From positions 1-54,327 of the forward strand of contig PFDR01000065.1 of assembly GCA_002772545.1 (NCBI GenBank): 54,327 nucleotides of DNA. Direction: 5' to 3'. The notes beneath the pieces were generated by a model. It saw only the letters and a list, made by a program, of their open reading frames with translations, was not told the DNA's origin and did no database searches. Of the stretch, positions 10,428 through 36,840 are shown piece by piece. This DNA is from Candidatus Peregrinibacteria bacterium CG10_big_fil_rev_8_21_14_0_10_49_10 (GTDB lineage: Bacteria; Patescibacteriota; Gracilibacteria; Peribacterales; Peribacteraceae). Every line of letters starts with the position of its first letter. Position 1 is the first letter of the stretch. Position numbers and translations under genes: made by a program.

Positions 10428-10462
10428 GAATTAAGAATTAAGAATTATGAATGAAGATTAGC
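10428..10462. repeat. Heptamer array (GAATTAA-type), left arm of four-helix-bundle locus 1
   Basis: GAATTAA GAATTAA GAATTAT GAATGAA GATTAGC then ATG. Confidence 0.85.
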
Positions 10463-10882
10463 ATGGCACAAGTAGTACAAAATAAAACGGCTCCGCACAA
10501 GAAGATACAATCTTTCACAGATCTAGATGCTTGGAAAGCAGGGCATAATCTTGTCATTACCGTTTATGAAATTGCAAAAAAATTCCCAAAATGCGAAGAA
10601 TTTGAACTAGCAAAGCAGCTAAAAAGAGCAGTGACATCTATTACTTCAAATATTGCGGAGGGATTCAGTAGGCAGTCGTATAAGGAAAAAATGTATTTTT
10701 ATAGGATAGCGCTCGGTTCACTTACAGAGGTGCAAAATCAATTACTGATTGGTAGGGATGTACAACTGATTACTCAAGATATTTTTTATAGAGCGACTAA
10801 TCAGGCTGTTACTGCAAGTAAAATCATCAACGGACTCATCAAATCAACAGGGATGAGAAGAATGCAAGTTCCTAATTCTTAA
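10463..10882 (+). CDS. Four helix bundle protein (23S rRNA IVP/TIGR02436, Avd-like fold), copy 1
   Basis: SFTDLDAW..G, FP..E.F.L..QLKRAVTSITSNIAEG, IALGSLTEVQNQ, INGLI; start 10463 or 10451. Confidence 0.9.
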   Translation: MAQVVQNKTAPHKKIQSFTDLDAWKAGHNLVITVYEIAKKFPKCEEFELAKQLKRAVTSITSNIAEGFSRQSYKEKMYFYRIALGSLTEVQNQLLIGRDVQLITQDIFYRATNQAVTASKIINGLIKSTGMRRMQVPNS

Positions 10883-10895
10883 TTCCTAATTCCCT
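10868..10895. repeat. Heptamer array (TAATTCY), right arm of locus 1
   Basis: GTTCC TAATTCT TAATTCC TAATTCC is the reverse complement of the left-arm unit and contains the stop codon. Confidence 0.85.
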
Positions 10896-10900
10896 GCCTC

Positions 10901-12091
10901 GTGATAACGCATATTGATGCTGACGCTTTCTTCGCCTCCGTACTCCAGCGGAAGTACCCCAAACTCCGCGGAAAACCCCTTTTGGCACTGGGAATGGGCG
11001 GTGGGTGTGTTATTGCAGCCAGTTACGAAGCGAAAGCGATGGGCGTACGTACGGGCATGCGCCTGGTGGAAGCCCGCAAGCTCTGTAAGGGTGCGATAGA
11101 AATGCCCTCGGATTTTGAGGAAACGGCCGTCGCTTCGCATCAGATTGCTTCCATTCTCGGAGAACAATGTCCGGTACTGGAAAAAATGTCGGTGGATGAA
11201 TGGTTTGCGGATCTCAAATTATTGCAGGGAGGACTCCCAAAGAACCCGGGGCTGTGGGCACAGAGAATGCAGGAAGATATTGTTCTGCGTGTCGGCATTT
11301 CTGTCTCTGTCGGCATAGCACAGAGCAAATTGCTCGCTAAAATGGCCAGCGAGTACCGCAAGCCTGCAGGAGTAACAGTGGTAGAACAGAAGGACATCGA
11401 AGCATTCTTACGGGATCGTCCTGCAGCAGCTATTCCGGGCATTGGAAAAAGACGTTCTCTGCATGCCGAAGCCAATCGCTGGGAAACAGCATGGGATATT
11501 GCCACCGCAGACACTGAGATCATCAACCGGCTCTTCGGCAAACCCGGAAGGGAGATGCAGCTTGAGCTCCTTGGACACCGCCTCTATGAGGTAGAGACTT
11601 CTTGCACACCTCCCAAATCTATTTCACGGTGCCGGAGCTTTCGTGCCGACGAAAACCGGGGTGCCATCTTCTCCTCTCTGCTTGACCATGTGAGTTACAC
11701 CATCCTCAAAATGCGCCGCCATGGGCTCGTGTGCCGGGAAATAACAGTATGGCTGCGCAACGGTGAATATCGGCACAATGGCAGAAATGCCAGGCTCCCC
11801 CAGCCTATGGATACCGAAGAACAGATTTTGCCGTATGTGCGCCAGTGCTTCGGCCGTTTGTACGCCGAAACGCCCCGCTGTACGCAGACAGGACTTGCTC
11901 TCTGTGGGTTGCAGTCAAAGGGCGTACTGCAATACTCCCTTTTTGAAGACGTAAAACGCACGGGTTCCAGTGAACAGATTCAGGAAAAACTGGATGAACT
12001 CCACACACGTTTCGGAAGAATGTCGGTGACACGGGGGTCAGCCATACCGGCTAAAAAAGAGAGCAGGCCGCACCTCAATATTTTGCATTAA
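10901..12091 (+). CDS. dinB: Y-family DNA polymerase (DinB/UmuC-like)
   Basis: HIDADAFFASV, IAASYEAK, SVDE, LAKMAS...KPAG, IPGIG; clamp-binding-like QYSLF. Confidence 0.9.
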   Translation: MITHIDADAFFASVLQRKYPKLRGKPLLALGMGGGCVIAASYEAKAMGVRTGMRLVEARKLCKGAIEMPSDFEETAVASHQIASILGEQCPVLEKMSVDEWFADLKLLQGGLPKNPGLWAQRMQEDIVLRVGISVSVGIAQSKLLAKMASEYRKPAGVTVVEQKDIEAFLRDRPAAAIPGIGKRRSLHAEANRWETAWDIATADTEIINRLFGKPGREMQLELLGHRLYEVETSCTPPKSISRCRSFRADENRGAIFSSLLDHVSYTILKMRRHGLVCREITVWLRNGEYRHNGRNARLPQPMDTEEQILPYVRQCFGRLYAETPRCTQTGLALCGLQSKGVLQYSLFEDVKRTGSSEQIQEKLDELHTRFGRMSVTRGSAIPAKKESRPHLNILH

Positions 12092-14823
12092 GCCAAGCTC
12101 TGCAGGCGCTCTTGTATCTTTGCAAGCTTCTCCTGCGTACTCGTTAACTTCTCCTGCTCTCCCTGCACCACTTCCGCAGGTGCGGAAGAAAGGAATGTCT
12201 TGTTGTTGAGTTTTGCCTGTATTCCGGTAAGGAACTGCGAAAGACTTGCCTGCTCTTTTATTAATTTTGCCCGTACCTTCTCTTTGTCTACGAGTCCCTC
12301 CAGAGGCATATGCACTTCTGTTCCCTGTAGAAAAGTACTGGCTGCATTTTCATGCTGCTGTGGGTTGCCATCTATAGTCAGGTTTTCCAGACGCGCCAGA
12401 CGAATAATATGCTCACGTTCGTTCTCCAGAAGAGAACCGTGTTTGGAGTGAATAACAACATTCACTTTCTTTGCCGGCTCCAGGTCCTGCTCGGCACGCA
12501 TGACACGGATGGAGGAGATAACATCTATAACCACCTGTAGCTGATTAAAAGCCTCCTGATCGTGGAGCTTCGCATCTACCTCGGGCCAGGGCATCGTAAG
12601 AAGCATAGGAGCCTCCTGAGGCTTGCAATGCTCCCACAGGGCTTCTGTAACGAACGGACAGTAGGGATGAAGAAGTAGCAGAAGTGTACGCAGTGCATGA
12701 ACCAGTACGGCAGGATTTGCATCGCCCTTGGAAAGTTCTAAGTACCAGTCGCAGAAGTAGTCCCAGGTAAAGCTGTAGAGCCGCTCCCCCACATCACTCA
12801 GACGGTATGCTTCCATTCCTTCAGTGACATCCCGAATGAGATCCTGCAGAGCAGAAAGAAGCGCCCGATCCGCCAGCGAGCTGTCAGCTGATAGCTGATA
12901 ACTGATAGCAATTGTATGCAGATCTACCTTTGCCTCCTCACACTGCATGAATACAAACCGACTCGCATTCCAAAGTTTATTGATGAAGTTTCGGTACCCC
13001 GCAATCTTTTCATCATACAAACGTGAATCGTTTCCGGGACTCTGGCCGAGGATCATGGAAAGGCGCAATGCATCGGCGCCGTACTTGGGGATAATCTCGA
13101 GAGGATCTATACAGGTTTCGGGGTCGGACTTGCTCATCTTCTTCCCTTCCCGTGTGCGGATGAGACCATGGAGGTAGACGGTTTCAAAGGGTATGTTCCC
13201 CGTAGCGTAGGTTGTCATAAGGATCATACGAGCCACCCAGAAGAAGAGAATATCGTAGCCTGTTTCCATGACCTGCGTAGGATGGAACCGTTGGTAGTCG
13301 GGACTCTTTTCGAGGATGTCTTTGAGTGAAAGAGAGTAGTCTTCGGTCAGGCTTTTATCCACCAATGTGCTCCACGTCCAGAGAGCGGAAGAAAACCAGG
13401 TATCCAATGTATCGGAATCCTGCTCTACGAACTCTCCGCAATGTGGACATGTGGGAAGCAGCTGTACGGAGACGTACTGACCGCTTTCTGGACTACTGCT
13501 ATCACCACATTTCGTACAGTAAAAGACCGGCACCCTGTGCCCCCACCAGATCTGCCGGGAAATGCACCAGTCACGCAGGTTATCTATCCAATGGAAGTAG
13601 ATCTTGTTGAACTTCTCCGGAATAATTTTGATGTCCCCGGTATTCACAACAGTTTGCATCACCTCCTTTAAGCTCATTTTTTTCGGAGAAAGAACACCGA
13701 ACCGTTTGCCGCCCCACGGCACAACCTTCTTATTCACATCTATAAACCACTGCAAACGCACCTGCGGTTCTATCTTCCCTTTCCCACGGGAGTTGATGGC
13801 TACAGCATGTTCGTAGTTATCCTCTACACGCACGACAAGTCCTTTCTTCTCCAGTTTCTCCAGTACTTTCGGTCGTGCCTCCTCTATGGGTAAACCGGCA
13901 AACTCCTCTCCGGCAACCGAGAGCAGCTTCCCTTCAAAATCAATAATCTGACCGTAGTCGAGCTTGTGCCGCTGGGCAATTTCAAAGTCAGTATGGTCGT
14001 GCCACGGTGTAATGGTCATACAACCGGAACCGAAAGCAGGGTCTACCGCCGCATCTTTTATGACGGTAGCCGTGATGGGACCATTGATCCACTCGCACTC
14101 AAACGTATCACCGTGCTTGTACTCCCTGTAACGTTCGTCGTCCGGATGCATAACAACGTACTTGTCACCAAACTTGGTTTCCGGACGCACCGTACCTATC
14201 TGAAACGGCCCGTACTGAAACCAGTAGAAAGGATCTTTTCGGTTCACATGCTCCACTTCGTCATCCGAAACATTCGTTTGTAAATTTGGATCCCAGTTTA
14301 CGATGCGGTTACCGCGATAAATGAGACCGTCGTTGTACATCTGTACAAATACTTCATTCACACAGCGATTCAATGTGGGATCCATAGTATAGGCCTCACG
14401 GGACCAGTCGCAGGAGCTGCCCATTTTACGCACCTGCGAGCGGATGGTATCGCGACTGGTCTCTACAAATGCTGCAATCCGTTTGAGGAGCTCCTCTCGC
14501 CCCAGTTCTTCACGGGGATGCGCCATGCCCTCTTTTTGGAGTCGTGCTATGACCACATTCTCTGTGGCAATGGCAGCATGATCTGTACCGGGAACCCATA
14601 GGGCCTCCTTCCCTTTCATGCGCTCATAGCGAATAAAGATGTCCTCCAGTGCCAACATGACCGCATGACCAAGGTGCAGTTGCCCCGTCGCATTCGGCGG
14701 AGGCATGCTGATGGTAAATGTCTCCTTATCGCTCTCTGTACTGGGTGTAAAGGCGCCACTTTCCTCCCACATAGAATAGATGCGGTCTTCGGTACCCTGT
14801 GGATCATACGCTTTGGGCAACAT
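12088..14823 (-). CDS. valS: Valine--tRNA ligase
   Basis: PPPNATGQLHLGH, GTDHA, DWCISRQIWWGH, DTWFSS, KMSKS, C-terminal coiled coil; ATG 14823. Confidence 0.97.
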   Translation of the reverse strand: MLPKAYDPQGTEDRIYSMWEESGAFTPSTESDKETFTISMPPPNATGQLHLGHAVMLALEDIFIRYERMKGKEALWVPGTDHAAIATENVVIARLQKEGMAHPREELGREELLKRIAAFVETSRDTIRSQVRKMGSSCDWSREAYTMDPTLNRCVNEVFVQMYNDGLIYRGNRIVNWDPNLQTNVSDDEVEHVNRKDPFYWFQYGPFQIGTVRPETKFGDKYVVMHPDDERYREYKHGDTFECEWINGPITATVIKDAAVDPAFGSGCMTITPWHDHTDFEIAQRHKLDYGQIIDFEGKLLSVAGEEFAGLPIEEARPKVLEKLEKKGLVVRVEDNYEHAVAINSRGKGKIEPQVRLQWFIDVNKKVVPWGGKRFGVLSPKKMSLKEVMQTVVNTGDIKIIPEKFNKIYFHWIDNLRDWCISRQIWWGHRVPVFYCTKCGDSSSPESGQYVSVQLLPTCPHCGEFVEQDSDTLDTWFSSALWTWSTLVDKSLTEDYSLSLKDILEKSPDYQRFHPTQVMETGYDILFFWVARMILMTTYATGNIPFETVYLHGLIRTREGKKMSKSDPETCIDPLEIIPKYGADALRLSMILGQSPGNDSRLYDEKIAGYRNFINKLWNASRFVFMQCEEAKVDLHTIAISYQLSADSSLADRALLSALQDLIRDVTEGMEAYRLSDVGERLYSFTWDYFCDWYLELSKGDANPAVLVHALRTLLLLLHPYCPFVTEALWEHCKPQEAPMLLTMPWPEVDAKLHDQEAFNQLQVVIDVISSIRVMRAEQDLEPAKKVNVVIHSKHGSLLENEREHIIRLARLENLTIDGNPQQHENAASTFLQGTEVHMPLEGLVDKEKVRAKLIKEQASLSQFLTGIQAKLNNKTFLSSAPAEVVQGEQEKLTSTQEKLAKIQERLQSLA
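12879..12909. repeat. Heptamer array (AGCTGAT-type) inside valS, frame preserved
   Basis: AGCTGTC AGCTGAT AGCTGAT AACTGAT AGC, read as AISYQLSADS in ValS. Confidence 0.75.
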
Positions 14824-14987
14824 TAGAAGTGGAGAAACAGTACAAAGTCGCGAAGCGGAAGCTTGCTTTCGCTGGAGCGACACCTCTTAAGGGAAAGGGG
14901 TGTCCGTGAGGGGAAAACCGCAGGTTTGCCCCTCACGATAGAAATGCGGTCTTCGGTTCCCTGTGGATCGTAAGCTTTTGGGAGCAT
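14823..14987 (-). CDS. 54-aa valS leader ORF beginning with a duplicate of the ValS N-terminus
   Basis: Hand translation MLPKAYDPQGTEDRISIVRGKPAVF...FVLFLHF*; its stop overlaps the valS start (TAATG). Confidence 0.55.
   Translation of the reverse strand: MLPKAYDPQGTEDRISIVRGKPAVFPSRTPLSLKRCRSSESKLPLRDFVLFLHF
14905..14937. repeat. GC-rich REP-like hairpin
   Basis: CGTGAGGGG-AAAACCGCAGGTTTG-CCCCTCACG. Confidence 0.65.
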
Positions 14988-15136
14988 GGAAAAGCAATGA
15001 GCTATGCGTTACAAGCAGCATAATGCTACCAGCAAAGAGCAGAAAGCTAAATCCAATGAATACATAGGCATCCCGCAAAGAAATTCAGAAAAACAATTGA
15101 GTCGGCTTGTGCTCAGGATTACAGTTATCCGCTAAC

Positions 15137-15643
15137 ATGACACTTTTTGCAAATACCCTTCAGGCCGCTCTGCGAAAGCGAAAATCCATCGCCATACCTC
15201 ACCTTGTGCAACTAAAAAGGGATATTTGCATACGCCACCTGCGTACCGACGGAATTCTACAGACTGTAGGCGCTCTTCCTCTGGCAGTGGGGGCTGGTGT
15301 AACAAAACTGGGAAACGCAGTTGTGGGAGATGTTGCTGTATTCTTCGGAGCACATGTAGAACCTATTCCCCTTCCCGAAGGATACTTTCCCTACACACGT
15401 AGGAACGTTGCTTCAATTTCAGAAAATATATCCAAATTAGTGCACAACATTCTGCATCTACACCTGCTACAGGCACTGGCGAACGCTGCAAAGAGCAGCG
15501 CCGACATCTTCGACCTGTTTGGGGATACTCTCCTGGATGCAGGAACAACCGTCTTCTGCCATACGTACTCCACCCGCAGAATACAGGAGCCACTTTTCAG
15601 TGATCCTTCCGAAGTTCTGCCACAATTTGGGCTCCCTGCCTGA
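15137..15643 (+). CDS. Hypothetical protein
   Basis: Long ORF divergent from valS; no recognised motif. Confidence 0.55.
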   Translation: MTLFANTLQAALRKRKSIAIPHLVQLKRDICIRHLRTDGILQTVGALPLAVGAGVTKLGNAVVGDVAVFFGAHVEPIPLPEGYFPYTRRNVASISENISKLVHNILHLHLLQALANAAKSSADIFDLFGDTLLDAGTTVFCHTYSTRRIQEPLFSDPSEVLPQFGLPA

Positions 15644-15877
15644 CGTTTGGAAAGCACAGAAAAGTGTTTTTCTTTGTTGATATAAAAAACGACCGCCGGT
15701 AGAGGGCGGTCATCTTCAAATGGGAGAAAGATCAATAACTTCTTTAGTTGAAGCCGACACTTTTTACAGCAAGATGTAAAACCGTGCAAGTATTTCTACA
15801 GGAAATCGTTGCCAAAAAGAGTGTTTCATACTATATTTCTCGTTCACATGCATGTAGATATAGGATCAGAAATGGGC

Positions 15878-16324
15878 ATGAAGGAACAGAGGCTTGTGTG
15901 GAAGCAGACTCCAAACACATTGGGAAGCAACACAGGCTTTTCTGAGCCATCCGACAGACTGTGTACTCTTACGGGCATTACACGTATTCGAGAGAGTACG
16001 GTGGATGCTGTGGGGGGTATTATGAAAGGAACTGGGAAGATTTTGAGCGGTGAGCCTCTCAAGGGATTGGCAAAGGTCGGTGAATCTGTATTCAATATAC
16101 TGGATATTCCTGCCAGTGCAGTCGCTGACTTCAGCACCGCAATCACCCGGCCTGTAGACCGTAAACCGGGGACTTCTGAATATGGTTTAAACGTTTCCCG
16201 TGCACTCGGATCGTTTAAAGAGGCAAAGAGGCCAACAGAATTTATCGGGGCTACCATAGATACGATACACGCCATCGGCTTCCGTGCAGGCAGCGACATT
16301 CTCCGCATCATTCAGAAGAACTAA
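15878..16324 (+). CDS. Hypothetical protein
   Basis: ORF with amphipathic Gly-rich helices; TAATG coupling to the next ORF; start uncertain (15848/15872/15878). Confidence 0.6.
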   Translation: MKEQRLVWKQTPNTLGSNTGFSEPSDRLCTLTGITRIRESTVDAVGGIMKGTGKILSGEPLKGLAKVGESVFNILDIPASAVADFSTAITRPVDRKPGTSEYGLNVSRALGSFKEAKRPTEFIGATIDTIHAIGFRAGSDILRIIQKN

Positions 16325-16527
16325 TGTCTGTGGAAGCAGCAGCACCGGCGAGTGAAGCCGCACTCAACACAAGTGCAGTAGCGGGTTCTGTGGAGCTTAT
16401 TCAGAAATTCTTCAGCCTGAAACTGGGAGAATACACTGTACTGGAGTACACAGGTGCCGCTTTCATTATTGCCGGTGTGGTCGGTTTGACGCGGTGGGCT
16501 TTTGCAAAAGCGTTCGGTTCCAACTAG
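16324..16527 (+). CDS. Small single-TM protein
   Basis: TAATG overlap; C-terminal hydrophobic helix. Confidence 0.6.
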   Translation: MSVEAAAPASEAALNTSAVAGSVELIQKFFSLKLGEYTVLEYTGAAFIIAGVVGLTRWAFAKAFGSN

Positions 16528-16563
16528 CAGACAGACGACGGAGCTGCTTCAATACACATCACT

Positions 16564-16884
16564 ATGCCTACGTTTGATTTTAAATGTACAGGTTGCAGCG
16601 CAGTGTTTGAATTTCATCGCCCCTTCGGGAGCACTAAAAAACCTGCGTGCCCGGAGTGTGCATGTAAGGATGTGCAGAAGCTTATTGCTCCGCCAAGCAT
16701 CCAGTTTAAAGGGGAAGGTTTTTACAAGACAGACAGCAGGAAAGAGGCCGAAAAACCTGTAAAGGACACAAAGAGCGACAAAGCAGCTCAAACGGCACCC
16801 ACAGCGGAAAAGAAGGAACCTGGCCCAAAACCCGGGGAGAAGACCCAAAAGGAGCAAAAGGATTCTAAAGAGAAGGCGAAATAG
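16564..16884 (+). CDS. FmdB-family zinc-ribbon protein
   Basis: MPTFDFKCTGC...CPEC...FKGEGFYKTD with a Lys-rich tail. Confidence 0.9.
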   Translation: MPTFDFKCTGCSAVFEFHRPFGSTKKPACPECACKDVQKLIAPPSIQFKGEGFYKTDSRKEAEKPVKDTKSDKAAQTAPTAEKKEPGPKPGEKTQKEQKDSKEKAK

Positions 16885-17000
16885 CACGACTTCGTTGTAA
16901 AGTTTTGCCGTTACCTGCCTTGAATAAAGATTCCGTCCCCAATCATTAAGCTATTTAAAGGCAGAGCCGTATAGGGTATAATGGAGGGAACCCAACATAT

Positions 17001-17873
17001 ATGAACCAAAAAAAGCCTTTCCGCAATCACTCGTCGGTCTTCACTCGCTTCTTTGAAAAGCTGAACGATCTCACGTACTCACAACTCTTCCTGCTTTGGG
17101 CAGAACTCGCGTTGCTTTTTGCGTTTGGGTACTTTTTGTTTAGCACCATTGGCGATGTACAACACCACGGACCGGTCGCCTTGGTAGAAACCAAAGGAAT
17201 ATGGAATCGGTTTTTCAATAGTCTCTACTACAGCATTATTACAGCCACCTCTACAGGGTATGGAGATATTGTTCCACGGGGACTTTCTAAACTGCTCGCA
17301 AGTGCACAAAGCATGAGCGCTCTGCTCATTTTCGCTATATTTGTCACCAAGTTGGTTGCGCATCGCCAGGAAATTGCATTGCGCGAGGTGCACCGATTCA
17401 CCTTTGAAGATGTGTTTCATAATATCCGCGAAGGGCTCTTTATTATTCGTAAAGACTTCGACGGTATTATAGAACGGGTAGAGACGAATAAGCAGTTGGA
17501 AGAAGAGGACTGGGACACGCTTATTATCGCCTACAAACAGGCACAGAGTCTCTTTGCAGAAATTCCCGACTTCTATGACGAAGACAATCACCTCTTCACA
17601 CTGGACATGCGTCGTGAACAGCTCCTGCATGAGGCAGTCCATCGCACACTCCACCGCATAAACCATACGTTAGATGCCCTGAGCAAACATCATGTGGACT
17701 GGATTTCCAACGAGAAGAGCGTGAAAGAACTACGGGAACTTATGCTGGTGGTGAACAGGATCACACCGGTATGGCGGGAGAAGTCTCCCTATGACCGCAA
17801 GGAAGCATTTGAGGACATCATGCACTTAAAAGACAGTGTGACAAAAAGGATAGAAGGAGCATTGCCGGTATAA
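17001..17873 (+). CDS. 2-TM potassium channel family protein
   Basis: YYSIITATSTGYGDIVP selectivity filter between TM helices; helical cytoplasmic C-terminal domain. Confidence 0.85.
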   Translation: MNQKKPFRNHSSVFTRFFEKLNDLTYSQLFLLWAELALLFAFGYFLFSTIGDVQHHGPVALVETKGIWNRFFNSLYYSIITATSTGYGDIVPRGLSKLLASAQSMSALLIFAIFVTKLVAHRQEIALREVHRFTFEDVFHNIREGLFIIRKDFDGIIERVETNKQLEEEDWDTLIIAYKQAQSLFAEIPDFYDEDNHLFTLDMRREQLLHEAVHRTLHRINHTLDALSKHHVDWISNEKSVKELRELMLVVNRITPVWREKSPYDRKEAFEDIMHLKDSVTKRIEGALPV

Positions 17874-18023
17874 CCGCAAAGAAGCGTGCAGGTATTCTGG
17901 ATTGGAAGGATAACGTGAGTAAGAAGAGAGGAGGGGCATTATAAAAGTGCATGTGTTCTGCGGAGCAATAGAACAGGTTTTGTGGCTTACTGAAGAGGAT
18001 TTTTCCTAACCGTAGAAAGAAAA

Positions 18024-18047
18024 AGTGGGCAGTGGCAAGTGGGCAGT
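18024..18047. repeat. Heptamer array (AGTGGGC-type), left arm of locus 2
   Basis: AGTGGGC AGTGGCA AGTGGGC AGT. Confidence 0.85.
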
Positions 18048-18070
18048 CTCGCAATAGATACAATAGTGAT

Positions 18071-18454
18071 ATGACAAGACTACCCTATCAAAAATTGCAC
18101 ATCTGGCAGAAAGGCATGCAGTTAACCAAAAAAATCTATGCCATAACCAAATTGTTGCCTGCTGATGAACGTTACGGACTCATATCGCAAATGAATCGAG
18201 CAGCAGTCTCTGTTCCATCGAATATTGCAGAAGGCAGTCAGAGAATAACAAAAGAAGGAATGGGGCACTATTTGCGCATCGCAAGGGGATCACTGGTTGA
18301 ATTGGAAACACAAACCCTTCTCTGCAGAGAATTATTTTCGGTATGCAGTGACAGCATCACACTGCCAATTCTCAATGAAATACAGGAACTAAAAAAGATG
18401 ATGTACAGTTTCCAGCAAAAGCTACAAAGCGACAGCGAGCAAGTTTGCACATAA
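18071..18454 (+). CDS. Four helix bundle protein, copy 2
   Basis: YQKLHIWQKG, LP.DERYGLISQMNRAAVSVPSNIAEG, IARGSLVELETQ. Confidence 0.92.
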   Translation: MTRLPYQKLHIWQKGMQLTKKIYAITKLLPADERYGLISQMNRAAVSVPSNIAEGSQRITKEGMGHYLRIARGSLVELETQTLLCRELFSVCSDSITLPILNEIQELKKMMYSFQQKLQSDSEQVCT

Positions 18455-18456
18455 GC

Positions 18457-18479
18457 ACTGCCCACTTGCCACTGCCCAC
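18457..18479. repeat. Heptamer array, right arm of locus 2
   Basis: ACTGCCCACTTGCCACTGCCCAC is the exact reverse complement of 18025-18047 (23 bp). Confidence 0.9.
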
Positions 18480-18519
18480 CTGTGGTACACGTGGGCAGCA
18501 GCAAAAGAATCATTCATCG

Positions 18520-20778
18520 CTATCTCCTTGGCGGTCCTCTCCTGTCCCCCCCTCTAAACCCTCCTCCATGACGTGGCGGTCCGCTGTGGCGTGGTCTGTC
18601 CGGCGGCATGCCGGCAGGGCGCTCTGTCATCTGCTTCAGCGAGAGACGAGTCTTACCTTCGGTGGCATTGTATTCCACACATTTTGCTTTTACTTCATCC
18701 CCCACCTTCAGCACGTCTTCCACCTTTTCGGTACGAGCCCACTGCAGTTCGGAAATGTGGATCATAGCATCCTTGCCTCCAAGGAATTCTACTATGGCAC
18801 CTATACCATCAATAATCCGCACAACCTTACAGTCGTACATAGCACCCTCTTCCGGCTTGGCTACAATTGTTTCTATCCATGCCTTCGCTTTTGCCATACT
18901 TTCACCATCCACAGAAGTTACAAAGATGAGACCACTGTCCTCTATGTCTATTTCTACTCCTAAGTCTCCGGTGATCTTCTGGATGGTCTCTCCGCCCTTT
19001 CCTATAACAAGACGGATGTCATCGGGATTGATTTGAATGGTTTCTATACGCGGAGCATACGGACTCATTTCCTTGCGTGGTTCCGCAATAGCCTTGAGCA
19101 TGGTTTCCATAATAGACATACGCCCCGTTTTTGCACGTTCCAATGCCTCTTTAAACACTTCGTCCGGGAGTCCTTTAATTTTAATATCCATCTGAATAGC
19201 GGTAACTCCCTTTTCGGTACCTGTGACTTTAAAGTCCATATCTCCTCCAAAGTCTTCTTCGTCTTGAAGATCGGAGAGAATGACGTACTTGCCCGCTTCT
19301 TCATCGGAAACGAGGCCAAGTGCTATACCTGAGACCGGAGCAGAAATGGGTACACCTGCCGCCATAAGAGCAAGGGTAGATCCGCATGTAGCAGCCATGG
19401 AAGAAGAACCATTACTCTCTAAAATCTCTGTGACGGTACGAATGGTGTAAGGGAAACTTTCTTCGGAAGGCAACACAGGCTCTATACCACGCTGGGCAAG
19501 ATTTCCGTGTCCTATTTCCCTATTCCCCACAAAGAGCCTGTTGCTTGTTTCTCCTACGGAGAACGGTGGGAAGTTGTAGTGATGAAAGTAACGATCTTTT
19601 TTCTCACCCATCATACCCTCTGTAAGTTGCTTATCTCCCGGTGCGCCAAGTGTGCAGGTGGTAAGCCCCTGTGTTTCTCCACGCTGGAACAGTGCTGAGC
19701 CATGTACCCGGTTTGGGAGCACATCTACCATTACTCCAATGGGACGAATTTCATCCACCTTGCGACTGCTCATGCGAAGTCCTTCTTCCAGAATGAGACG
19801 ACGCACTTCTCCTTTGACCACTTTATCCATGAGATCACCGGCATGTGCGTAGAGCTCAGCCAATTCTTCATTTCCTTCTGCAGAACCAAATTTCTCCTCC
19901 AGTTTTGCAGCAGCGCCGTCTATAAAAGTAGTGAATATTCCTCTGCGATCCAGCTTCTCCAACGGCTCTTTAATAGCCTTGTTTACATCTGCAAGCGCCC
20001 AGTCTTTGAGTACCTGTAATGCTTCCTTATGGGTGTAGGATGCGGGTGCCTCCCACTTTTCCTTCCCGATCTCCTTTTGAATGTCTGCAAAGGCTTTGGC
20101 AATTTTCTGTGCCCACTTCTTGCCAAACTCTATGGCACGCAGCACATCCGCCTCCGGAACCTGATTTGCTCCCGCCTCTATCATCACTATCTTTTCCTGT
20201 GAAGCGGTAAGGACCATATCTAAATCTGCAGTCTTGCGGACTTCGTGCGAAGGATTGAGTATCAACTCTCCACCTACCATACCCACACGCACCGTGCCAA
20301 TGGGACCATCTGCAGGGCAATCCGAAATGGCCACAGCGAGGCTGGCTGCATTGGCCGAAGCAATGTCGTGCTCATTCTCAAAATCGTAACTCAGGATGGT
20401 GCAAAACACCTGAATATCGTTGTGAATAGTCTTGGCAAACATAGGACGCAGGCCACGGTCTATGACACGGGCCATAAGAACATAGTCATCTCCGGGACGA
20501 CCTTCTCGCTTGCGGAAGCGGGAACCGGCAATTTTACCTGCCGCATAAAATTTCTCCTGATACACCACCTGCAGAGGCAAAAAATCCACACCGTCACGTG
20601 CCTGCTTACTCACGGTGACGTTGCTCATACACACTGTGTCGCCCAGTTGGCAAAGCACAGTTGCGTTTGCTTGCTGTGCAAGCATACCCGTTTTAAAAAC
20701 GAGCTTTTGATCACCGAGTTCAACGGTGTACTCTTTTTGGGGAGCTATGGCGCTCGACCCTTTTTTTAAACCAAACAT
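18520..20778 (-). CDS. pnp: Polyribonucleotide nucleotidyltransferase (PNPase)
   Basis: DFLPL, REGRP, HGSALFQRGETQ, SNGSSSMA, GDMDFKV, KH and S1 domains. Confidence 0.97.
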   Translation of the reverse strand: MFGLKKGSSAIAPQKEYTVELGDQKLVFKTGMLAQQANATVLCQLGDTVCMSNVTVSKQARDGVDFLPLQVVYQEKFYAAGKIAGSRFRKREGRPGDDYVLMARVIDRGLRPMFAKTIHNDIQVFCTILSYDFENEHDIASANAASLAVAISDCPADGPIGTVRVGMVGGELILNPSHEVRKTADLDMVLTASQEKIVMIEAGANQVPEADVLRAIEFGKKWAQKIAKAFADIQKEIGKEKWEAPASYTHKEALQVLKDWALADVNKAIKEPLEKLDRRGIFTTFIDGAAAKLEEKFGSAEGNEELAELYAHAGDLMDKVVKGEVRRLILEEGLRMSSRKVDEIRPIGVMVDVLPNRVHGSALFQRGETQGLTTCTLGAPGDKQLTEGMMGEKKDRYFHHYNFPPFSVGETSNRLFVGNREIGHGNLAQRGIEPVLPSEESFPYTIRTVTEILESNGSSSMAATCGSTLALMAAGVPISAPVSGIALGLVSDEEAGKYVILSDLQDEEDFGGDMDFKVTGTEKGVTAIQMDIKIKGLPDEVFKEALERAKTGRMSIMETMLKAIAEPRKEMSPYAPRIETIQINPDDIRLVIGKGGETIQKITGDLGVEIDIEDSGLIFVTSVDGESMAKAKAWIETIVAKPEEGAMYDCKVVRIIDGIGAIVEFLGGKDAMIHISELQWARTEKVEDVLKVGDEVKAKCVEYNATEGKTRLSLKQMTERPAGMPPDRPRHSGPPRHGGGFRGGDRRGPPRR

Positions 20779-20875: not shown

Positions 20876-21099
20876 GTACTGTTATGGATTCACACAGCAA
20901 TCTCTGTTAGTACGAATAGAGCGGAGTGGTATGCTTGTACAACATGCAATCGTTGTTCGTGAGTAGTTATTGGTTATTAGTTCGGTGTTTTTGATGTGAA
21001 CAACCTCACTAATAACAAACAACCAATAACTATCTTGTCAGTGCCAAGCAACAACCTATCACTACAAACGTGTCAGAGACTCTTGCGTAAACCCAGTAC
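20876..21099 (-). promoter_or_regulatory. Long nested stem in the pnp 5' leader (candidate RNase III/autoregulation site)
   Basis: Nested complementary pairs GTACTG/CAGTAC, GCAATCTCTG/CAGAGA..TTGC and TAGTTATTGGTT/AACCAATAACTA. Confidence 0.5.
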
Positions 21100-23495: not shown

Positions 23496-23614
23496 TAATT
23501 AGAAACTAGAAACTAGAACTTGAAGCTTAGGCCGGGACCCTATTTTCTTAGGAAATTTTTGGTCCTAAATGACCAAGACACAAGAATATCTAGTGCTGAA
23601 TATTCTAGTTTCTA
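23496..23614. repeat. Inverted heptamer-repeat pair (AAACTAG) with no enclosed gene
   Basis: TAATTAG AAACTAG AAACTAG AACTTGA left arm; TTCTAGTTTCTA (23603-23614) is a 12-bp perfect complement containing the trpR stop. Confidence 0.7.
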
Positions 23615-27810: not shown

Positions 27811-27815
27811 AAGTG

Positions 27816-29626: not shown

Positions 29627-31255
29627 TCAGGGTTTGTACTGCCCGACCTCTTTTGCCATGAGCACCTGGTAGACCGCCCAGACCGCTTCCCTGCGGATCA
29701 TGAGCAAATCGGGAGTAAAGAAAATCTGATCGTAGAGAAAGAAAACATACGTATCCGCTACCCCAACAAAAGGTGTGTACCACGCGCAGGGCTGTACATC
29801 TATGTACGAGTGCGGCAAATACTGTTCCAGCCGGAATGCTGAGCTCACCATCTTTAAAAATTCCGCATGGTTCACAGTACGCAACGGACGGAAAGTACCA
29901 TCCGGGTACCCCTGCATGATGGCGTGTGCAACGGCACTCATGGCGAAGAGCTCTTCCTCTGATCCGGGCGAGAGATCCGGGAAAACGCCGTCATTTTGGA
30001 CAGGGGAAACATGGTACCCGGCAGCAAGCAACAGCATGTGAGCAGCCTCTGCACGACTTATGCGCTCGTTTCCGTGGAACATGCCATCGGAGCCCAGCTG
30101 GATAATCCCCCGCTTCAGGAGTTCACGTACGGCTCTTCCCAGATTGCTATAGGGGTTCACATCCGACGGGAACGGAAAATTTCCTTCATTGAAAAACCCA
30201 ACGGTAATGACATCCTTCATTCCTACAGTTAGAAACGGACGTGAGTAGTAGTGGTATTTCCCAACATCCTCAAACGTATATTCAAATTCATTGTTCCTCC
30301 ACTTGGTAATAGGACCGGAAGAAAACAGGGCTCCGTCATCGGCACTCCACAGGCCATCACCGTCATCATCCGAGGTCACTGTGTGCGTGTAGTCGTCCGT
30401 TACGGCCCACCGCACGGTATCTCCGGGCCGAATGTGCATGCCCTTGGGACTGTAGCCCGAAACGTACTTGTCCCTGTTGATTTCTACTACATAGGTGATG
30501 GGCAAATCCGCAAATGCCGGATCCCGCGTACTGCCCGGACCATATGGCTCGGCATCGAACTCATTGAGAATGCCATCACCGTCGGCATCGGGATCTTGAG
30601 CATTCGGAATATCGTCTCCGTCCATATCATCATCTTGGTTATTTGGGATGCCATCGCCATCGATGTCATCATCCTGGTCATTTGGAATACCGTCTCCATC
30701 TCTGTCGTTTGGATCAAAACGTACAACAGAAGAGCGTGATGAAGAAGACGATACAGAAGAGGACAGAACGGAAGAGCTGGAAAAAGATGAACGACGGGAA
30801 GATAGAGAGGAACGTCTGCTACTGGAACTCTTGGAGAGTGCAGAAGAACTGGAAGACGAACGGCTGGAAATGGAAGAGGAGGAAAATGAAGAAGAGGAGA
30901 AGGAAGAAGAAGAAGAAGAAGAAGAAGAAGGCACTGAAGAAAAAGAACGGGAGCGGGAAAACGATCTGGAGGATCCCGCACTGGAACTCCCTCCGAATCC
31001 CCCACTACTCCCCGCAGTTCTCTCTCCGCAATCGCGATGGATGGTGAACGGCGCAAGACCATGCACGACAGAATCACCCCGCTTTGCACTCGGCAGATAC
31101 TCATACAGATTTGGAACTGGACCAAATACGCAGGGATAGTCCGTGGAAGGAATAGGCCCAAAGAGTGACTGTGCGTAGAGGGGTAGAGCTACGAAAGCCA
31201 TCACCAAAGTGAGGACTCCGACTACTGCAAACCGATGTAAACGATGCTTGAACAT
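29627..31255 (-). CDS. Secreted protein with Ser-rich linker, DxDGDGIPN Ca-binding repeats, cupredoxin-like domain and SLH domains
   Basis: Four DxDGD.I.N repeats, GDTVRW..HTVT..YHYY....GM, GYPDGTFRP; start 31255 or 31267. Confidence 0.85.
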   Translation of the reverse strand: MFKHRLHRFAVVGVLTLVMAFVALPLYAQSLFGPIPSTDYPCVFGPVPNLYEYLPSAKRGDSVVHGLAPFTIHRDCGERTAGSSGGFGGSSSAGSSRSFSRSRSFSSVPSSSSSSSSSFSSSSFSSSSISSRSSSSSSALSKSSSSRRSSLSSRRSSFSSSSVLSSSVSSSSSRSSVVRFDPNDRDGDGIPNDQDDDIDGDGIPNNQDDDMDGDDIPNAQDPDADGDGILNEFDAEPYGPGSTRDPAFADLPITYVVEINRDKYVSGYSPKGMHIRPGDTVRWAVTDDYTHTVTSDDDGDGLWSADDGALFSSGPITKWRNNEFEYTFEDVGKYHYYSRPFLTVGMKDVITVGFFNEGNFPFPSDVNPYSNLGRAVRELLKRGIIQLGSDGMFHGNERISRAEAAHMLLLAAGYHVSPVQNDGVFPDLSPGSEEELFAMSAVAHAIMQGYPDGTFRPLRTVNHAEFLKMVSSAFRLEQYLPHSYIDVQPCAWYTPFVGVADTYVFFLYDQIFFTPDLLMIRREAVWAVYQVLMAKEVGQYKP

Positions 31256-33701: not shown

Positions 33702-33736
33702 AGTCTGAAGCAGGTAACAAACAAAACACCTCCGCT

Positions 33737-34724: not shown

Positions 34725-34822
34725 GAACAGTTTTTAGGCTTTATAAAGCCACATATCCATATGTATCGGAGAAATTTTTCACAGGGGACATACAGAGGAA
34801 AAAATGAGAGGAAACTATAGGT

Positions 34823-36334
34823 ATGCATGCCCGCAGATGTTCCTACACCTTCCTTCTCAGTTTTCTTATTGGCATCTTTCTGTTGCAGTGGAACCAGCAA
34901 AAAATGTATCCGCCGGATGTCTGGGAACTCCTGCTCATGCTCGGAGCGCTGGGTGCGGTCTCCGTTTGTATACCGCAGACAAGGAAGATGGGAGGCATAG
35001 CCCTGGCCATGGCACTGGGCATTGCCGTGTCTCTGAGTACCGTGGAACGCACAACACATGTGCCAACGGCATTGACTGTAGATACCTATGCAACGGAGCA
35101 GTTCGTAAAAGTGTATGGAACCATTGCCGCAGAACCCGACAGAAGACCTATGCAAACTAAATACACCGTAGACGTACATCAGATTCAAACTGCATCGGGC
35201 ACCATTCTTTTTCCCGTACAGGGAAAGGTACTTGCTACGTACGGGAGCTGGCCACGCTTTGCCTATGGAGAGGATGTCGTAGTGCAGGGCACACTCCAGG
35301 CACCCCGTGCCATAGAAACCTTTCAGTACGACCGCTATTTGAGCCGCTATGGAGTCTATGCAGTCATCTATAGAGCGGGTATGCAGAAGAAACAAAGTGT
35401 CGCACCGAAGGATGACATCTGGGCAAGGTTCAAATCCTCTCTCTTTACACTCAAAGACCACTTTGAATACCGGATCAATACTCTGTATGCAGAACCACAT
35501 GCTTCATTTATGGCAGGTCTGCTTACAGGTTCCCGACGTGGCATACCCGATGCATTGCTGAAGGATTTCAATACCACAGGTCTCACACACATTATTGCTA
35601 TTTCCGGCTACAACATCACCATTGTTATCACCATGATTTCAGGAATGCTCTTCTGGTTGCCACTGAAGAAACGGTTCTTCCCCGCAGTTGCTGCCATCAT
35701 TGCATTTACGCTTTTTGTGGGAGCAAGCGCCGCTATAGTTCGTGCAAGCATTATGGGAATACTCGGACTGCTTGCACTGCAAACAGGACGCCAGTCTGAA
35801 GTGCGACTGAGCGTACTGTGGACCCTCTTTTTCATGCTCCTGTGGAACCCAAAGTACCTGTGGTACGACGCAGGCTTCCAGCTCTCGTTCCTTGCCGTGC
35901 TGGGGCTCATAGAAGTAGCTCCGCTGCTCGACCCCCTCTTTCAATACATTCCTCAGACACTCGGTATTCGTGAAGCACTGCAAATGACCGTATCCGCACA
36001 GCTGAGTGCGGTACCGCTCATTATTTTTTTGTTTGGCAGACTCTCCCTTATAGCACCCATAGCAAATCTCCTTGTTGCTCCTTTTATACCGCTTGCCATG
36101 TTGTTTGGATTCCTCGGAACGGTAGCAAGTTTTGTATGGTTCCCTCTGGGGCAAATGCTCTCCTATATTGCATGGGGATGTCTGGAGTGGATTGTAATCG
36201 TGGCACATCAACTTTCTAATATTCCCTTTTCATCGGTAGAACTAGGAAAGATAAGTAGTATAGTTATTGTGGGGTATTACTGCCTTCTCCTTCTTGTGTT
36301 GTATCGCCATCAGCGAATGGTTGCTTGTTACTAG
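34823..36334 (+). CDS. comEC: ComEC/Rec2 competence protein (OB and Competence domains; no MBL domain)
   Basis: TGLTHIIAISGYN, RASIMG, GFQLSFLA. Confidence 0.93.
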   Translation: MHARRCSYTFLLSFLIGIFLLQWNQQKMYPPDVWELLLMLGALGAVSVCIPQTRKMGGIALAMALGIAVSLSTVERTTHVPTALTVDTYATEQFVKVYGTIAAEPDRRPMQTKYTVDVHQIQTASGTILFPVQGKVLATYGSWPRFAYGEDVVVQGTLQAPRAIETFQYDRYLSRYGVYAVIYRAGMQKKQSVAPKDDIWARFKSSLFTLKDHFEYRINTLYAEPHASFMAGLLTGSRRGIPDALLKDFNTTGLTHIIAISGYNITIVITMISGMLFWLPLKKRFFPAVAAIIAFTLFVGASAAIVRASIMGILGLLALQTGRQSEVRLSVLWTLFFMLLWNPKYLWYDAGFQLSFLAVLGLIEVAPLLDPLFQYIPQTLGIREALQMTVSAQLSAVPLIIFLFGRLSLIAPIANLLVAPFIPLAMLFGFLGTVASFVWFPLGQMLSYIAWGCLEWIVIVAHQLSNIPFSSVELGKISSIVIVGYYCLLLLVLYRHQRMVACY

Positions 36335-36350
36335 TTGCTTGTAACTTGTT
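36318..36350. repeat. Heptamer array, left arm of locus 3
   Basis: TGGTTGC TTGTTAC TAGTTGC TTGTAAC TTGTT then ATG; contains the comEC stop. Confidence 0.85.
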
Positions 36351-36719
36351 ATGGCTATATTTATTACATTCGAGGATATAAAGGCTTGGCAGGAAGGTCG
36401 CAAGCTCATGCAAACCATACGCCAATACTGCAATAGAGCTCGTGCCAAAAGAGACTTTGCATGGGCAGACCAAATCAGCAGATCCACTCTTTCTGTTATG
36501 GCCAATATTGCGGAAGGACATGATGCACTTAGTAAAAATGAATTCATTAGGTTTTTAGGATATGCAAAGCGCTCATGCGCAGAAACAAGATGTCACTTGT
36601 ACTATGGTTTTGATGCTGGATACATCACAAAAAAAGAATTCCAATCTACAGCTTTACAGGCAAAACAGATTTGCGCTCAAATTGCTAGCCTCATCAAGTA
36701 TCTAAGAAGTAGCAAATGA
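36351..36719 (+). CDS. Four helix bundle protein, copy 3
   Basis: TFEDIKAWQEG, DF...DQISRSTLSVMANIAEG, EFIRFL.YAKRSCAE. Confidence 0.92.
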   Translation: MAIFITFEDIKAWQEGRKLMQTIRQYCNRARAKRDFAWADQISRSTLSVMANIAEGHDALSKNEFIRFLGYAKRSCAETRCHLYYGFDAGYITKKEFQSTALQAKQICAQIASLIKYLRSSK

Positions 36720-36840
36720 GCAACAAGTAACTAGTAACCAGCAACAAGTAACTAGTAACCAGCAACAAGTAACTAGTAACCACTAACCAGCAACTAGTAA
36801 CTAGTAACCACTAACCAGCAACTACTAAACAAGCACCAGT
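36720..36840. repeat. Heptamer array of about 15 units, right arm of locus 3
   Basis: (GCAACAA GTAACTA GTAACCA)x3, then CTAACCA GCAACTA GTAACTA GTAACCA CTAACCA GCAACTA; complementary to the left arm. Confidence 0.92.

What the first reader, a model, noticed from the sequence alone, without database searches (positions are those of the whole stretch)
10428..36840. Three four-helix-bundle genes, each caged between inverted arrays of a locus-specific 7-mer: candidate mobile or RNA-processing unit
Seen: three paralogues (10463-10882, 18071-18454, 36351-36719) share the L..W..G / Q..R...S...NIAEG / A..S..E pattern. Each has a period-7 tandem array just before the start codon and the reverse-complement array at or after the stop. 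The heptamer differs at each locus (GAATTAA, AGTGGGC, TTGTTAC/TAGTTGC), while period and inverted geometry are constant. Known: this family was first found in 23S rRNA intervening sequences, whose complementary flanks form a stem that is cut out, and it shares its fold with the DGR accessory protein Avd. Inference: the arms pair in the transcript and loop out the ORF as an IVS-like unit in mRNA, or they are the termini of a non-autonomous element. Complementarity is kept at three unrelated sequences, which argues that pairing rather than sequence is selected. No transposase or RT is present in the window.
Basis: partly seen in the sequence, partly recalled or inferred. Interest (0 to 1): 0.88.

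Follow-up and report, generated by a model that had tools for sequence, protein, structure and literature searches.

The report
Hairpin cassettes around four-helix-bundle genes
Each of these small genes sits in the loop of a long hairpin built from short tandem repeats, the same design as a known insert in ribosomal RNA, and this design turns out to be a family-wide rule across many bacterial phyla that also ties the gene to the unexplained 7-base repeats scattered through bacterial genomes.

Summary
All three window genes are PF05635/TIGR02436. Each lies between an upstream heptamer array and its reverse complement. Seven of the 8 testable copies in this genome show the same inverted flanks, and they take 7 of the top 9 places among 1029 crude genes. 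The pattern also holds in 23 of 30 loci from relatives and in 53 of 76 loci from many phyla, against 8 of 76 for direct orientation.

The period is mostly 7, sometimes 8 or 9; two copies in this genome read as 6 and 8. The units are not unrelated: they share an in-phase YAG.

The genome also holds 39 gene-less hairpins of the same unit families. Array abundance tracks gene copy number across 121 genomes, rho 0.70.

The lexA-dinB site is filled, empty or holds a mini-hairpin in different relatives, and the two arms co-vary.

The Coxiella 23S intervening sequence (IVS) has the same anatomy and is cut by RNase III. I read these as IVS-type hairpin cassettes lying in mRNA. Processing is inferred, not shown: there is no G:U excess and no RNA data.

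The parts
10428..10457 (+). Upstream arm of cassette 1: GAATTAA x4.3. It begins 5 nt after the lexA stop and ends 5 nt before the ATG at 10463 (an alternative ATG at 10451 lies inside the array).
   Evidence: TRF; inverted pair I1; sequence
10463..10882 (+). Four-helix-bundle gene 1 (139 aa), between lexA and a dinB-like gene, all on the + strand.
   Evidence: PF05635 E 4.9e-33, TIGR02436 E 2.6e-32; neighbours by Pfam
10869..10893 (+). Downstream arm of cassette 1: the reverse complement of the upstream array. It overlaps the last codons and the stop codon.
   Evidence: TRF; 24 nt, 92% complementary; pairs in MFE and centroid folds
18023..18047 (+). Upstream arm of cassette 2 (AGTGGGC/AGTGGCA units). 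It ends 23 nt before the ATG.
   Evidence: Pairs I1 and I4; sequence
18071..18454 (+). Four-helix-bundle gene 2 (127 aa), downstream of an ion-channel gene and convergent with pnp.
   Evidence: PF05635 E 7.2e-32; PDB 2GSC E 3.6e-21; neighbours
18456..18482 (+). Downstream arm of cassette 2. It starts 2 nt after the stop codon.
   Evidence: 23 nt, 100% complementary; fold z -3.12 with arms paired
36318..36351 (+). Upstream arm of cassette 3 (GTTGCTT/GTTACTA units). It runs into the ATG.
   Evidence: TRF period 14; pairs I1-I9
36351..36719 (+). Four-helix-bundle gene 3 (122 aa), downstream of comEC.
   Evidence: PF05635 E 1.6e-27; neighbour by Pfam
36719..36828 (+). Downstream array of cassette 3: 14.4 heptamer units. 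It is much longer than the upstream arm, so several pairing registers are possible.
   Evidence: TRF; inverted pairs; fold z -2.99 with arms paired
20963..21032 (.). Gene-less hairpin of the same kind: arms 20964-20982 and 21014-21032 (TAGTTAT/TGGTTAT units), loop 31 nt, upstream of pnp.
23500..23614 (.). Gene-less hairpin: TAGAAAC x2.7 and its reverse complement, loop 84 nt.

Best explanation
Each of the three genes is the ORF-bearing form of a hairpin element. The stem is made of two inverted tandem arrays, mostly heptamers of the form NNNNYAG on the inward-reading strand. The loop holds one PF05635 four-helix-bundle gene, hugged from just before its start codon to its stop codon.

This is the anatomy of the S23p-carrying intervening sequence (IVS) of 23S rRNA. 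Here it sits between protein-coding genes and is co-oriented with them.

Shown:
- The architecture, its specificity for this gene family, and its presence across phyla.
- Gene-less hairpins of the same unit families in the same genome.
- Genome-level coupling between array abundance and gene copy number.
- Filled, empty and mini states at one orthologous site.
- Co-variation of the two arms.

Inferred:
- The element is transcribed by read-through from the host operon.
- The arms pair into a 20-35 bp RNA stem.
- RNase III, whose gene is present in this genome, cuts that stem. This would release the cassette RNA and uncouple the flanking messages, as it does for the rRNA-borne relative.
- The family spreads within genomes as a selfish hairpin, with and without the ORF.

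What the protein does for the element is not known.
For: Family and arms.

Specificity: 7 of the top 9 cross-flank scores among 1029 genes are 4HB genes.

Generality:
- 23 of 30 loci from 21 related genomes score at or above 13.
- 53 of 76 loci from many phyla do so in inverted orientation, against 8 of 76 direct and 3 of 76 shuffled.

Same design in a tested IVS: the Coxiella 23S IVS has GACAGAT x2-3 before the S23p start codon and a 28-bp inverted-repeat stem. RNase III cuts inside the stem in vitro and the ends were mapped by RACE (passages read).

An RNase III gene is in this genome.

The arms close the MFE and centroid folds in all three loci.

Co-orientation with host transcription: the upstream neighbour is on the same strand in 64 of 72 clear cases, and the downstream neighbour in 60 of 71. 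The background for same-strand neighbours in this genome is 592 of 1056.

lexA-dinB site:
- Cassette in 4 of 15 related genomes, clean 16-24 nt gaps in 3, array mini-hairpins in 2.
- Within-element arm score median 16, against cross-element median 6.

Gene-less relatives:
- 39 hairpins in this genome. 15 of 39 share arms with one of 8 resident cassettes, against a mean of 2.05 (maximum 5) for cassette sets from relatives. None of 2000 resamples reached the observed value.
- YAG-array hits against PF05635 copies give Spearman 0.62 (31 genomes) and 0.70 (121 genomes).
- None of the 50 hits in this genome lies within 350 nt of a 4HB gene.
Against: - No RNA evidence of any kind for this organism.
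- Mismatches between arms show no G:U preference (142 against 147 A:C-type, 100 cassettes). Selection on a sense-strand RNA stem should produce such a preference, so DNA-level concerted evolution could equally keep the arms complementary.
- The fold of cassette 1 is no more stable than shuffles (z -0.68).
- The in-phase YAG is conserved equally on both arms (270 and 277 of 406 units). This points to sequence recognition that pairing alone does not explain.
- Gene-less hairpins show no skew in intergenic context.
- Arrays occur in some genomes with no 4HB gene found: G018, 100% complete, has 32 hits, and 3 of 42 gene-less genomes in the phylum sample have 10 or more hits.
- Among the relatives searched, none of the 4HB hits listed lies inside a 23S gene.
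- Related genomes are not independent, and general repeat-richness could inflate the correlations.
Confidence: 0.55

Rival explanations
1. This is a two-component repeat system in which the four-helix-bundle protein is the trans-acting factor. The pentameric ring binds the periodic YAG of single-stranded arrays (RNA or DNA), one unit per subunit. It thereby promotes the spread, maintenance or processing of both its own arms and the gene-less hairpins. This would be analogous to a RAYT gene flanked by its own REP sequences, with dispersed REPIN doublets (that analogy is recalled, not from a call).
For: - In-phase NNNN[T/C]AG consensus: information 3.37 bits against 2.47 +/- 0.11 in permuted controls. 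It is conserved symmetrically on both inward-reading strands.
- Fixed polarity: the 5' arm is G-rich in cassettes (G 509, C 173) and in 30 of 39 gene-less hairpins.
- Each unit family of gene-less hairpins tends to have one ORF-bearing member in the same genome.
- Array abundance scales with gene copy number (rho 0.70, n=121), although no hit in this genome is next to a gene.
- The solved relative 2GSC is deposited with five chains and is described as a toroidal homopentamer.
- TRF gives mostly 3-5 units per flanking array in this genome.
Against: - No covariation between variable unit positions and protein columns: top mutual information 0.693, below the 95th percentile of the null maximum, 0.726 (n=79).
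- Arm similarity tracks protein identity only weakly (Spearman 0.12).
- Arrays persist in genomes where no gene was found.
- No binding data exist.
- The YAG consensus is not universal. In several genomes the reversed control pattern is more common than the pattern itself (G011, G027).
Confidence: 0.28
2. The arrays are terminal inverted repeats of a DNA transposon-like element that is moved by a host or unlinked enzyme. Under this reading the gene is cargo, and RNA pairing is incidental.
For: - Copy number ranges from 0 to 24 among 31 related genomes.
- Filled and empty states occur at one site within a genus.
- A distant lineage carries a different cassette type at the same lexA-dinB site (L215).
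- The mismatch spectrum is symmetric between strands.
- ORF-less derivatives recall miniature inverted-repeat elements.
Against: - No transposase lies in any cassette.
- No Y1 transposase was found in the genome.
- I could not establish a target-site duplication at the lexA-dinB junction, because the flanks are too diverged and TTC/GAA is part of the arm.
- The strong co-orientation with host transcription is not expected for a DNA-only element.
- Cassettes stay at orthologous sites across genera.
- None was found in 50,697 phage records.
Confidence: 0.1
3. The arrays are ordinary slippage-prone simple repeats or G-quadruplex motifs, and they lie near these genes by chance or by composition.
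For: - Heptamer repeats are reported as over-represented in bacterial genomes, and G-rich ones fold into quadruplexes in vitro (passages read).
- This genome has 87 solo noncoding arrays, including a perfect TAGGGAT x9.1 in the window.
Against: - The statistics for inverted geometry.
- The arms co-vary.
- Most arm units are not G-tract sequences.
Confidence: 0.03

Closest known systems
23S rRNA intervening sequence carrying an S23p ORF (Coxiella; Leptospira as cited there; PMC4990558, passages read)
   Same: - Same protein family.
- The ORF lies in the loop of a stem made by terminal inverted repeats.
- Tandem heptamers lie directly before the start codon, with strain-variable copy number. Their unit GACAGAT fits NNNNYAG when rotated.
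- The ORF is sense to the host transcript.
- The Shine-Dalgarno sequence is poor.
   Different: - The window elements lie between protein-coding genes, not in helix 25 or 45 of 23S rRNA. Rfam finds only a tRNA in the window.
- There are nine copies per genome, each with its own unit.
- They are accompanied by dozens of ORF-less hairpins.
- RNase III cutting was shown for the rRNA element only.
Convergent GGGAATC heptamer arrays of Xanthomonas, GGGGA(C/T)T arrays of Nostoc, and the tandemly repetitive heptanucleotides of Calothrix PCC 7601 cited there (PMC4692102, passages read)
   Same: - Intergenic heptamer arrays, usually about four units.
- 70-75 inverted pairs per Xanthomonas genome.
- They lie mostly between aligned ORFs and are mostly transcribed.
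- A Xanthomonas PF05635 gene in my sample is flanked by inverted CGGGGAC arrays (L099).
   Different: - That paper treats the arrays as quadruplex motifs.
- In the passages I searched it does not mention the four-helix-bundle gene (0 occurrences of '23S', 'helix bundle' or 'XCC0516').
- Its supplementary tables could not be opened.
REP/REPIN sequences with their RAYT gene (recalled, no call)
   Same: - One gene is flanked by inverted copies of a short repeat family.
- The same family also occurs as dispersed gene-less hairpin doublets.
- Several families can coexist in one genome.
   Different: - The protein here is a four-helix bundle, not a Y1 transposase, and none was found in this genome.
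- The arms are tandem arrays, not single palindromes.
Avd accessory protein of diversity-generating retroelements
   Same: The fold and a distant sequence likeness: NF033474 at E 1.7e-4 and 3.1e-3, PF22296 at E 1.3e-3, all below the curated cut-offs.
   Different: - No adjacent reverse transcriptase.
- No template/variable repeat pair.
- The genome's only reverse transcriptase sits beside an HTH gene on another contig, with no direct repeats of 40 nt or more nearby.
TAACTGA direct heptamer repeats of Beggiatoaceae, cyanobacteria and Bacteroidetes (PMC4679880, passages read)
   Same: Abundant intergenic heptamer arrays, most ending just upstream of start codons.
   Different: - Those are nearly all direct repeats, with one inverted case reported.
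- No link to this gene family appears in the passages searched.

Membership tests
PF05635 / TIGR02436 four-helix-bundle (23S rRNA IVS protein) family | Profile match above the curated cut-off over the whole domain | tested here: met
   114, 110.2 and 96.3 bits against a cut-off of 33.8. TIGR02436 gives 111.3, 103.8 and 100.4 bits against 24. PDB 2GSC matches at E 3.6e-21.
rRNA intervening sequence (IVS) | Inserted in a 23S (or 16S) rRNA gene | tested here: not met
   The neighbours are LexA, a DinB-like gene, an ion channel, PNPase and ComEC. No rRNA is in the window. In relatives, none of the 4HB hits listed lies inside a 23S match.
rRNA intervening sequence (IVS) | Complementary termini that form a long stem enclosing the element | tested here: met
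   23-34 nt arms, 82-100% complementary for the best pair at each locus. The arms pair in the folds.
rRNA intervening sequence (IVS) | Excision from the transcript by RNase III | not testable with these tools
   An rnc gene is present. No RNA run was listed.
Diversity-generating retroelement (Avd) | Adjacent reverse transcriptase and a template/variable repeat pair | tested here: not met
   One PF00078 hit in the genome, on contig C8, not next to any 4HB gene. No direct repeats of 40 nt or more within 14 kb around it. Avd profiles score below their cut-offs.
REPIN/RAYT system | A Y1 (IS200/IS605-like) transposase gene flanked by the repeats | tested here: not met
   No PF01797 match in the genome, which is 89.65% complete.
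Transposon / MITE | Terminal inverted repeats plus a target-site duplication, with empty sites in relatives | tested here: inconclusive
   Inverted termini and empty sites exist. A duplication could not be established because the flanks are diverged.

The most novel reading that the evidence does not exclude
PF05635 proteins and short-period (mostly heptamer) tandem arrays form one widespread, unrecognised genetic system. It consists of an ORF-bearing hairpin and its ORF-less hairpin progeny, with the pentameric protein acting on the periodic YAG of the arrays.

If true, this single system would explain three things:
- the origin of ORF-containing rRNA intervening sequences;
- the function of a large family of unknown function;
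- much of the long-noted excess of heptamer repeats in bacterial genomes (cyanobacterial and Xanthomonas arrays included).
Probability: 0.3. Interest if true: 0.9.

Novelty: new variant of a known kind. Interest (0 to 1): 0.8.

Why it matters
The four-helix-bundle 'IVS protein' family is large and found across many phyla. It has had a solved structure since about 2006 and still has no known function.

Heptamer arrays have been reported as over-represented in bacteria, without explanation. The origin of rRNA intervening sequences is also an old open question.

The rule found here is: gene in the loop, inverted tandem arrays as the stem, ORF-less copies of the same unit families, and genome-wide coupling. 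It links these three loose ends and turns them into simple experiments, namely RNase III end mapping and protein-array binding.

In seven literature searches I found no paper that states this rule for genes outside rRNA.

Tried and rejected
RNA evidence: no RNA holder was listed for window 9700-19600.

rRNA link in relatives: 23S genes in relatives carry 0.5-2 kb of extra sequence, but none of the 4HB hits listed lies inside them. The 23S gene is not assembled in this genome.

Wobble test for RNA-level selection: negative, 142 against 147.

Protein-to-unit recognition code: mutual information is not above the null, and arm similarity correlates only weakly with protein identity (rho 0.12).

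Three-frame stop idea (a TAG every 7 nt): 18 of 53 upstream arms have stops in all three frames, against 6% of shuffles. Shuffling destroys periodicity, so the control is weak. I do not rely on it.

Intergenic context of gene-less hairpins: no clear skew (crude gene calls).

Target-site duplication at lexA-dinB: inconclusive.

Tree of lexA-site proteins: they are clustered (5 changes against 11.3 in shuffles, 1 of 500 shuffles as low) but unresolved. Monophyly is not shown.

Reverse transcriptase: it sits next to an HTH gene with no repeats nearby, so it is not a diversity-generating retroelement.

Phages: no match. Plasmids: 24 records, nearly all cyanobacterial. The Nostoc pCC7120alpha copy keeps only the downstream array, and its upstream side ends in a transposase-like ORF. 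That is my reading of the sequence and was not scanned.

In one search my coordinate filter flagged only 7 cassettes. Four more (L142, L162, L175, L179) carry the gene judging by their printed sequence.

In one search the C49 (TAAGGC) cassette was not among the 8 resident cassettes, so 15 of 39 is an undercount.

Rows dropped:
- 134 of 1163 crude genes lacked 250-nt flanks.
- 4 of 80 diverse loci lacked 150-nt flanks.
- 12 of 112 cassettes scored below the lenient 14.

The supplements of PMC4692102, which list the Xanthomonas repeat loci, could not be opened. They may show whether XCC0516 lies between such arrays.

Full report
WHAT IS THERE

The window is contig C53 of a 1.25-Mb, 98-contig genome with 49% G+C. 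The three ORFs match PF05635 and TIGR02436 far above their cut-offs. They match Avd profiles only weakly. The nearest solved structure is 2GSC (XCC0516, five chains).

- GAATTAA x4.3 at 10428-10457 faces its complement at 10869-10893.
- AGTGGGC-type units at 18023-18047 face a perfect 23-nt complement at 18457-18479.
- GTTGCTT/GTTACTA units at 36318-36351 face a 14-unit array at 36719-36828.

The arms hug the ORF closely. The upstream arm ends 5-11, 23 and 0 nt before the ATG in the three loci. The downstream arm overlaps the stop codon or starts 2 nt after it.

The neighbours are LexA and a DinB-like gene, an ion channel and PNPase, and ComEC.

IS IT MORE THAN CHANCE?

The genome has nine PF05635 genes.
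- By eye, eight have a tandem array upstream and its reverse complement downstream, each with its own unit.
- The ninth (C84) has the downstream array, but its upstream side is cut by the contig end.
- The periods are 7 at six loci, and 9, 8 and 6 at C9, C69 and C49.

I made 1163 crude ORF calls, of which 1029 had enough flank to score. The eight testable genes score 37, 26, 25, 23, 20, 18, 17 and 11 for cross-flank inverted complementarity. All other genes have median 8 and 99th percentile 12. Seven of the top nine are this family.

The two other high scorers are different things. One is a DUF559-like gene with a non-tandem inverted repeat, and the other is an unrelated repeat. So inverted arrays do not cage other genes.

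HOW GENERAL IS IT?

Relatives. Twenty-one of 31 related genomes hold the family, with 0-24 matches each. In 30 fetched loci, 23 exceed the control's 99th percentile.

Other phyla. A scan of species genomes returned 597 relatives. The best 80 come from many groups: Firmicutes, Bacteroidota, Proteobacteria (including Xanthomonas and Bosea), Planctomycetota, Acidobacteriota, Actinobacteria, candidate phyla and one archaeon. The best hit is a Candidatus Peribacteraceae MAG, which suggests where this genome belongs (that placement is an inference).

Of the 76 loci with enough flank:
- 53 score 13 or more in inverted orientation;
- 8 do so in direct orientation;
- 3 do so with a shuffled flank.

Among 99 arms of 18 nt or more, the period is 7 in 79, 8 in 12 and 9 in 8.

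THE UNITS ARE NOT ARBITRARY

I put the units in register by expectation-maximisation. The 79 heptamer units then give the consensus NNNN[T/C]AG, with A at 76% and G at 94%. The information content is 3.37 bits, against 2.47 +/- 0.11 when the letters are permuted within units.

The in-phase AG is kept equally on the upstream sense strand (270 of 406 units) and on the downstream antisense strand (277 of 406).

The 5' arm is G-rich and C-poor (G 509, C 173). The three window units fit when rotated: AATTAAG, TGGGCAG, TTACTAG.

GENE-LESS RELATIVES

The genome has 167 mostly noncoding arrays of period 6-9, and 79 of them have period 7. Eleven flank 4HB genes, 69 have an inverted partner within 1 kb, and 87 are solo.

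Pairing them up gives 39 gene-less hairpins. Their loops are 11-40 nt (20 cases) or 57-172 nt (18 cases), with one of 795 nt. The left arm is G-rich in 30 and C-rich in 7, which is the same polarity as in the cassettes. Two of these hairpins lie in the window.

Fifteen of the 39 share arms with one of eight resident cassettes. The null is a mean of 2.05 (maximum 5) for sets of eight cassettes from relatives, and 0.43 (maximum 3) for cassettes from other phyla. None of 2000 resamples reached the observed mean.

Across genomes, matches to YAG(N4)x4 track PF05635 copy number:
- Spearman 0.62 in 31 relatives.
- Spearman 0.70 in a phylum sample of 121.
- Genomes with no gene have a median of 1 hit, and 3 of 42 have 10 or more.
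- Genomes with five or more genes have a median of 44 hits, and 22 of 25 have 10 or more.

In this genome none of the 50 hits lies within 350 nt of a 4HB gene, so the coupling is not simply the cassettes counting themselves.

There are exceptions. G018 is 100% complete with no gene found and has 32 hits. G002 is 80% complete and has 72 hits. Related genomes are not independent, and general repeat-richness was not controlled.

ONE SITE FOLLOWED THROUGH RELATIVES

Fifteen related genomes have lexA next to dinB. At that junction:
- four carry a cassette (G000, G003, G007, G011);
- three have a clean 16-24 nt gap (G002 in the same genus, G010, G015);
- two have an array mini-hairpin (G017, G013);
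- four have other palindromes (G001, G008, G012, G014);
- two have longer unrelated sequence (G004, G016).

Metagenome contigs add more cassettes at this site, with many arm types (mostly xxGAATx, also GTATGTn and others). They also add more mini-hairpins and more clean gaps.

For 14 cassettes at this site, the within-element arm score has median 16 (range 12-24). The cross-element score has median 6, with 95th percentile 12. So the two arms change together.

The site's proteins are 51-60% identical where LexA is 69-87%. They cluster on a poorly resolved tree. One distant lineage has a different cassette type at the same site. Other syntenic pairs also group together (L014 with L023).

HOW IT PROBABLY WORKS

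The closest tested object is the Coxiella 23S IVS (passages read). It has:
- an S23p ORF;
- two or three GACAGAT heptamers directly before the start codon;
- a 28-bp inverted-repeat stem;

The window elements share this anatomy. The genome has rnc. The arms close the predicted folds.

Cassettes are co-oriented with their neighbours: the upstream neighbour is on the same strand in 64 cases, opposite in 8 and unclear in 36. The downstream neighbour is on the same strand in 60, opposite in 11 and unclear in 35. The background is 56% same-strand neighbours in this genome.

I therefore read them as IVS-type hairpin cassettes embedded in operon transcripts and probably cut at the stem by RNase III. 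The ORF-less hairpins would be the counterpart of ORF-less IVSs.

WHAT SPEAKS AGAINST THIS, AND WHAT IS UNEXPLAINED

- No RNA data could be had.
- Arm mismatches show no G:U excess (142 against 147), so RNA-level selection is not demonstrated. DNA-level concerted evolution remains possible.
- The conserved, symmetric, periodic YAG and the fixed polarity call for a sequence-reading partner. The pentameric protein is the obvious candidate.
- However, I found no protein-to-unit covariation and only a weak arm-protein correlation.
- No transposase is in the cassettes, and no Y1 transposase is in the genome.
- The single reverse transcriptase is unrelated to the cassettes.

LITERATURE

I ran seven searches and read passages from six papers.
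- The Coxiella paper notes the heptamers in the rRNA IVS.
- Rehm et al. describe convergent heptamer arrays in Xanthomonas without mentioning this gene.
- MacGregor describes TAACTGA direct repeats.
- A CPR study finds 23S_rRNA_IVP ORFs in 16S and 23S insertions.
- A DGR review and a CRISPR survey only name the domain.

None states that genes of this family outside rRNA sit between inverted tandem arrays, or links them to dispersed hairpins. Subscription journals and supplements were not searchable.

VERDICT

The IVS-like reading is the best supported, but it is unproven at the RNA level. The link to genome-wide heptamer arrays is new as far as I could find.

Noticed in passing
window 49093-49156: A perfect solo array, TAGGGAT x9.1, between two minus-strand genes, with no inverted partner within 1 kb. 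Similar G-rich solo arrays (TAGGGAT, TAGGGGT) lie on contigs C40 and C60. They resemble the quadruplex-type arrays described for Xanthomonas and Nostoc.
   Followed up: partly
G000 contig C90:4729-5275 (not in the window): A gene that looks DUF559-like by eye is flanked by a roughly 30-nt non-tandem inverted repeat. It has the second-highest cross-flank score among non-4HB genes. I did not scan it against Pfam.
   Followed up: no
G000 contig C8:45771-46676 (L140:2772-3677): The genome's only reverse transcriptase (301 aa) directly follows an HTH gene. There is no Avd-like gene and no long direct repeats nearby, so it is possibly a retron-like or defence RT.
   Followed up: partly
lexA-dinB junction in relatives (L034, L057, L144, L145): The same intergenic site holds a different, widely shared palindromic element (of the kind ...CCTGAGCG..TCGAAGG...). 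In other genomes it holds plain GC-rich hairpins. The site seems to be a hot spot for small hairpin inserts.
   Followed up: no
23S rRNA genes of relatives (e.g. G017:C7:35995-40580, G006:C29:19818-24735): The 23S genes span 3.4-4.9 kb against a 2.9-kb model. The large insertions hold no PF05635 hit listed. A preprint reports mainly homing endonucleases in such CPR insertions.
   Followed up: partly
G000 contig C80:3703-5047: The RNase III gene lies about 500 nt downstream of a 4HB cassette, with one NusB-like ORF between them (read by eye). This may be coincidence.
   Followed up: no
window 18466-18504: A second, local hairpin (18-nt arms, 83% complementary, 3-nt loop) overlaps the end of cassette 2's downstream arm, between the convergent 4HB and pnp genes.
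   Followed up: no
window 42349-42480 and 30593-30700: A 60-nt tandem repeat x2.2 (97% matches) and a 39-nt repeat x2.8, of unknown context.
   Followed up: no
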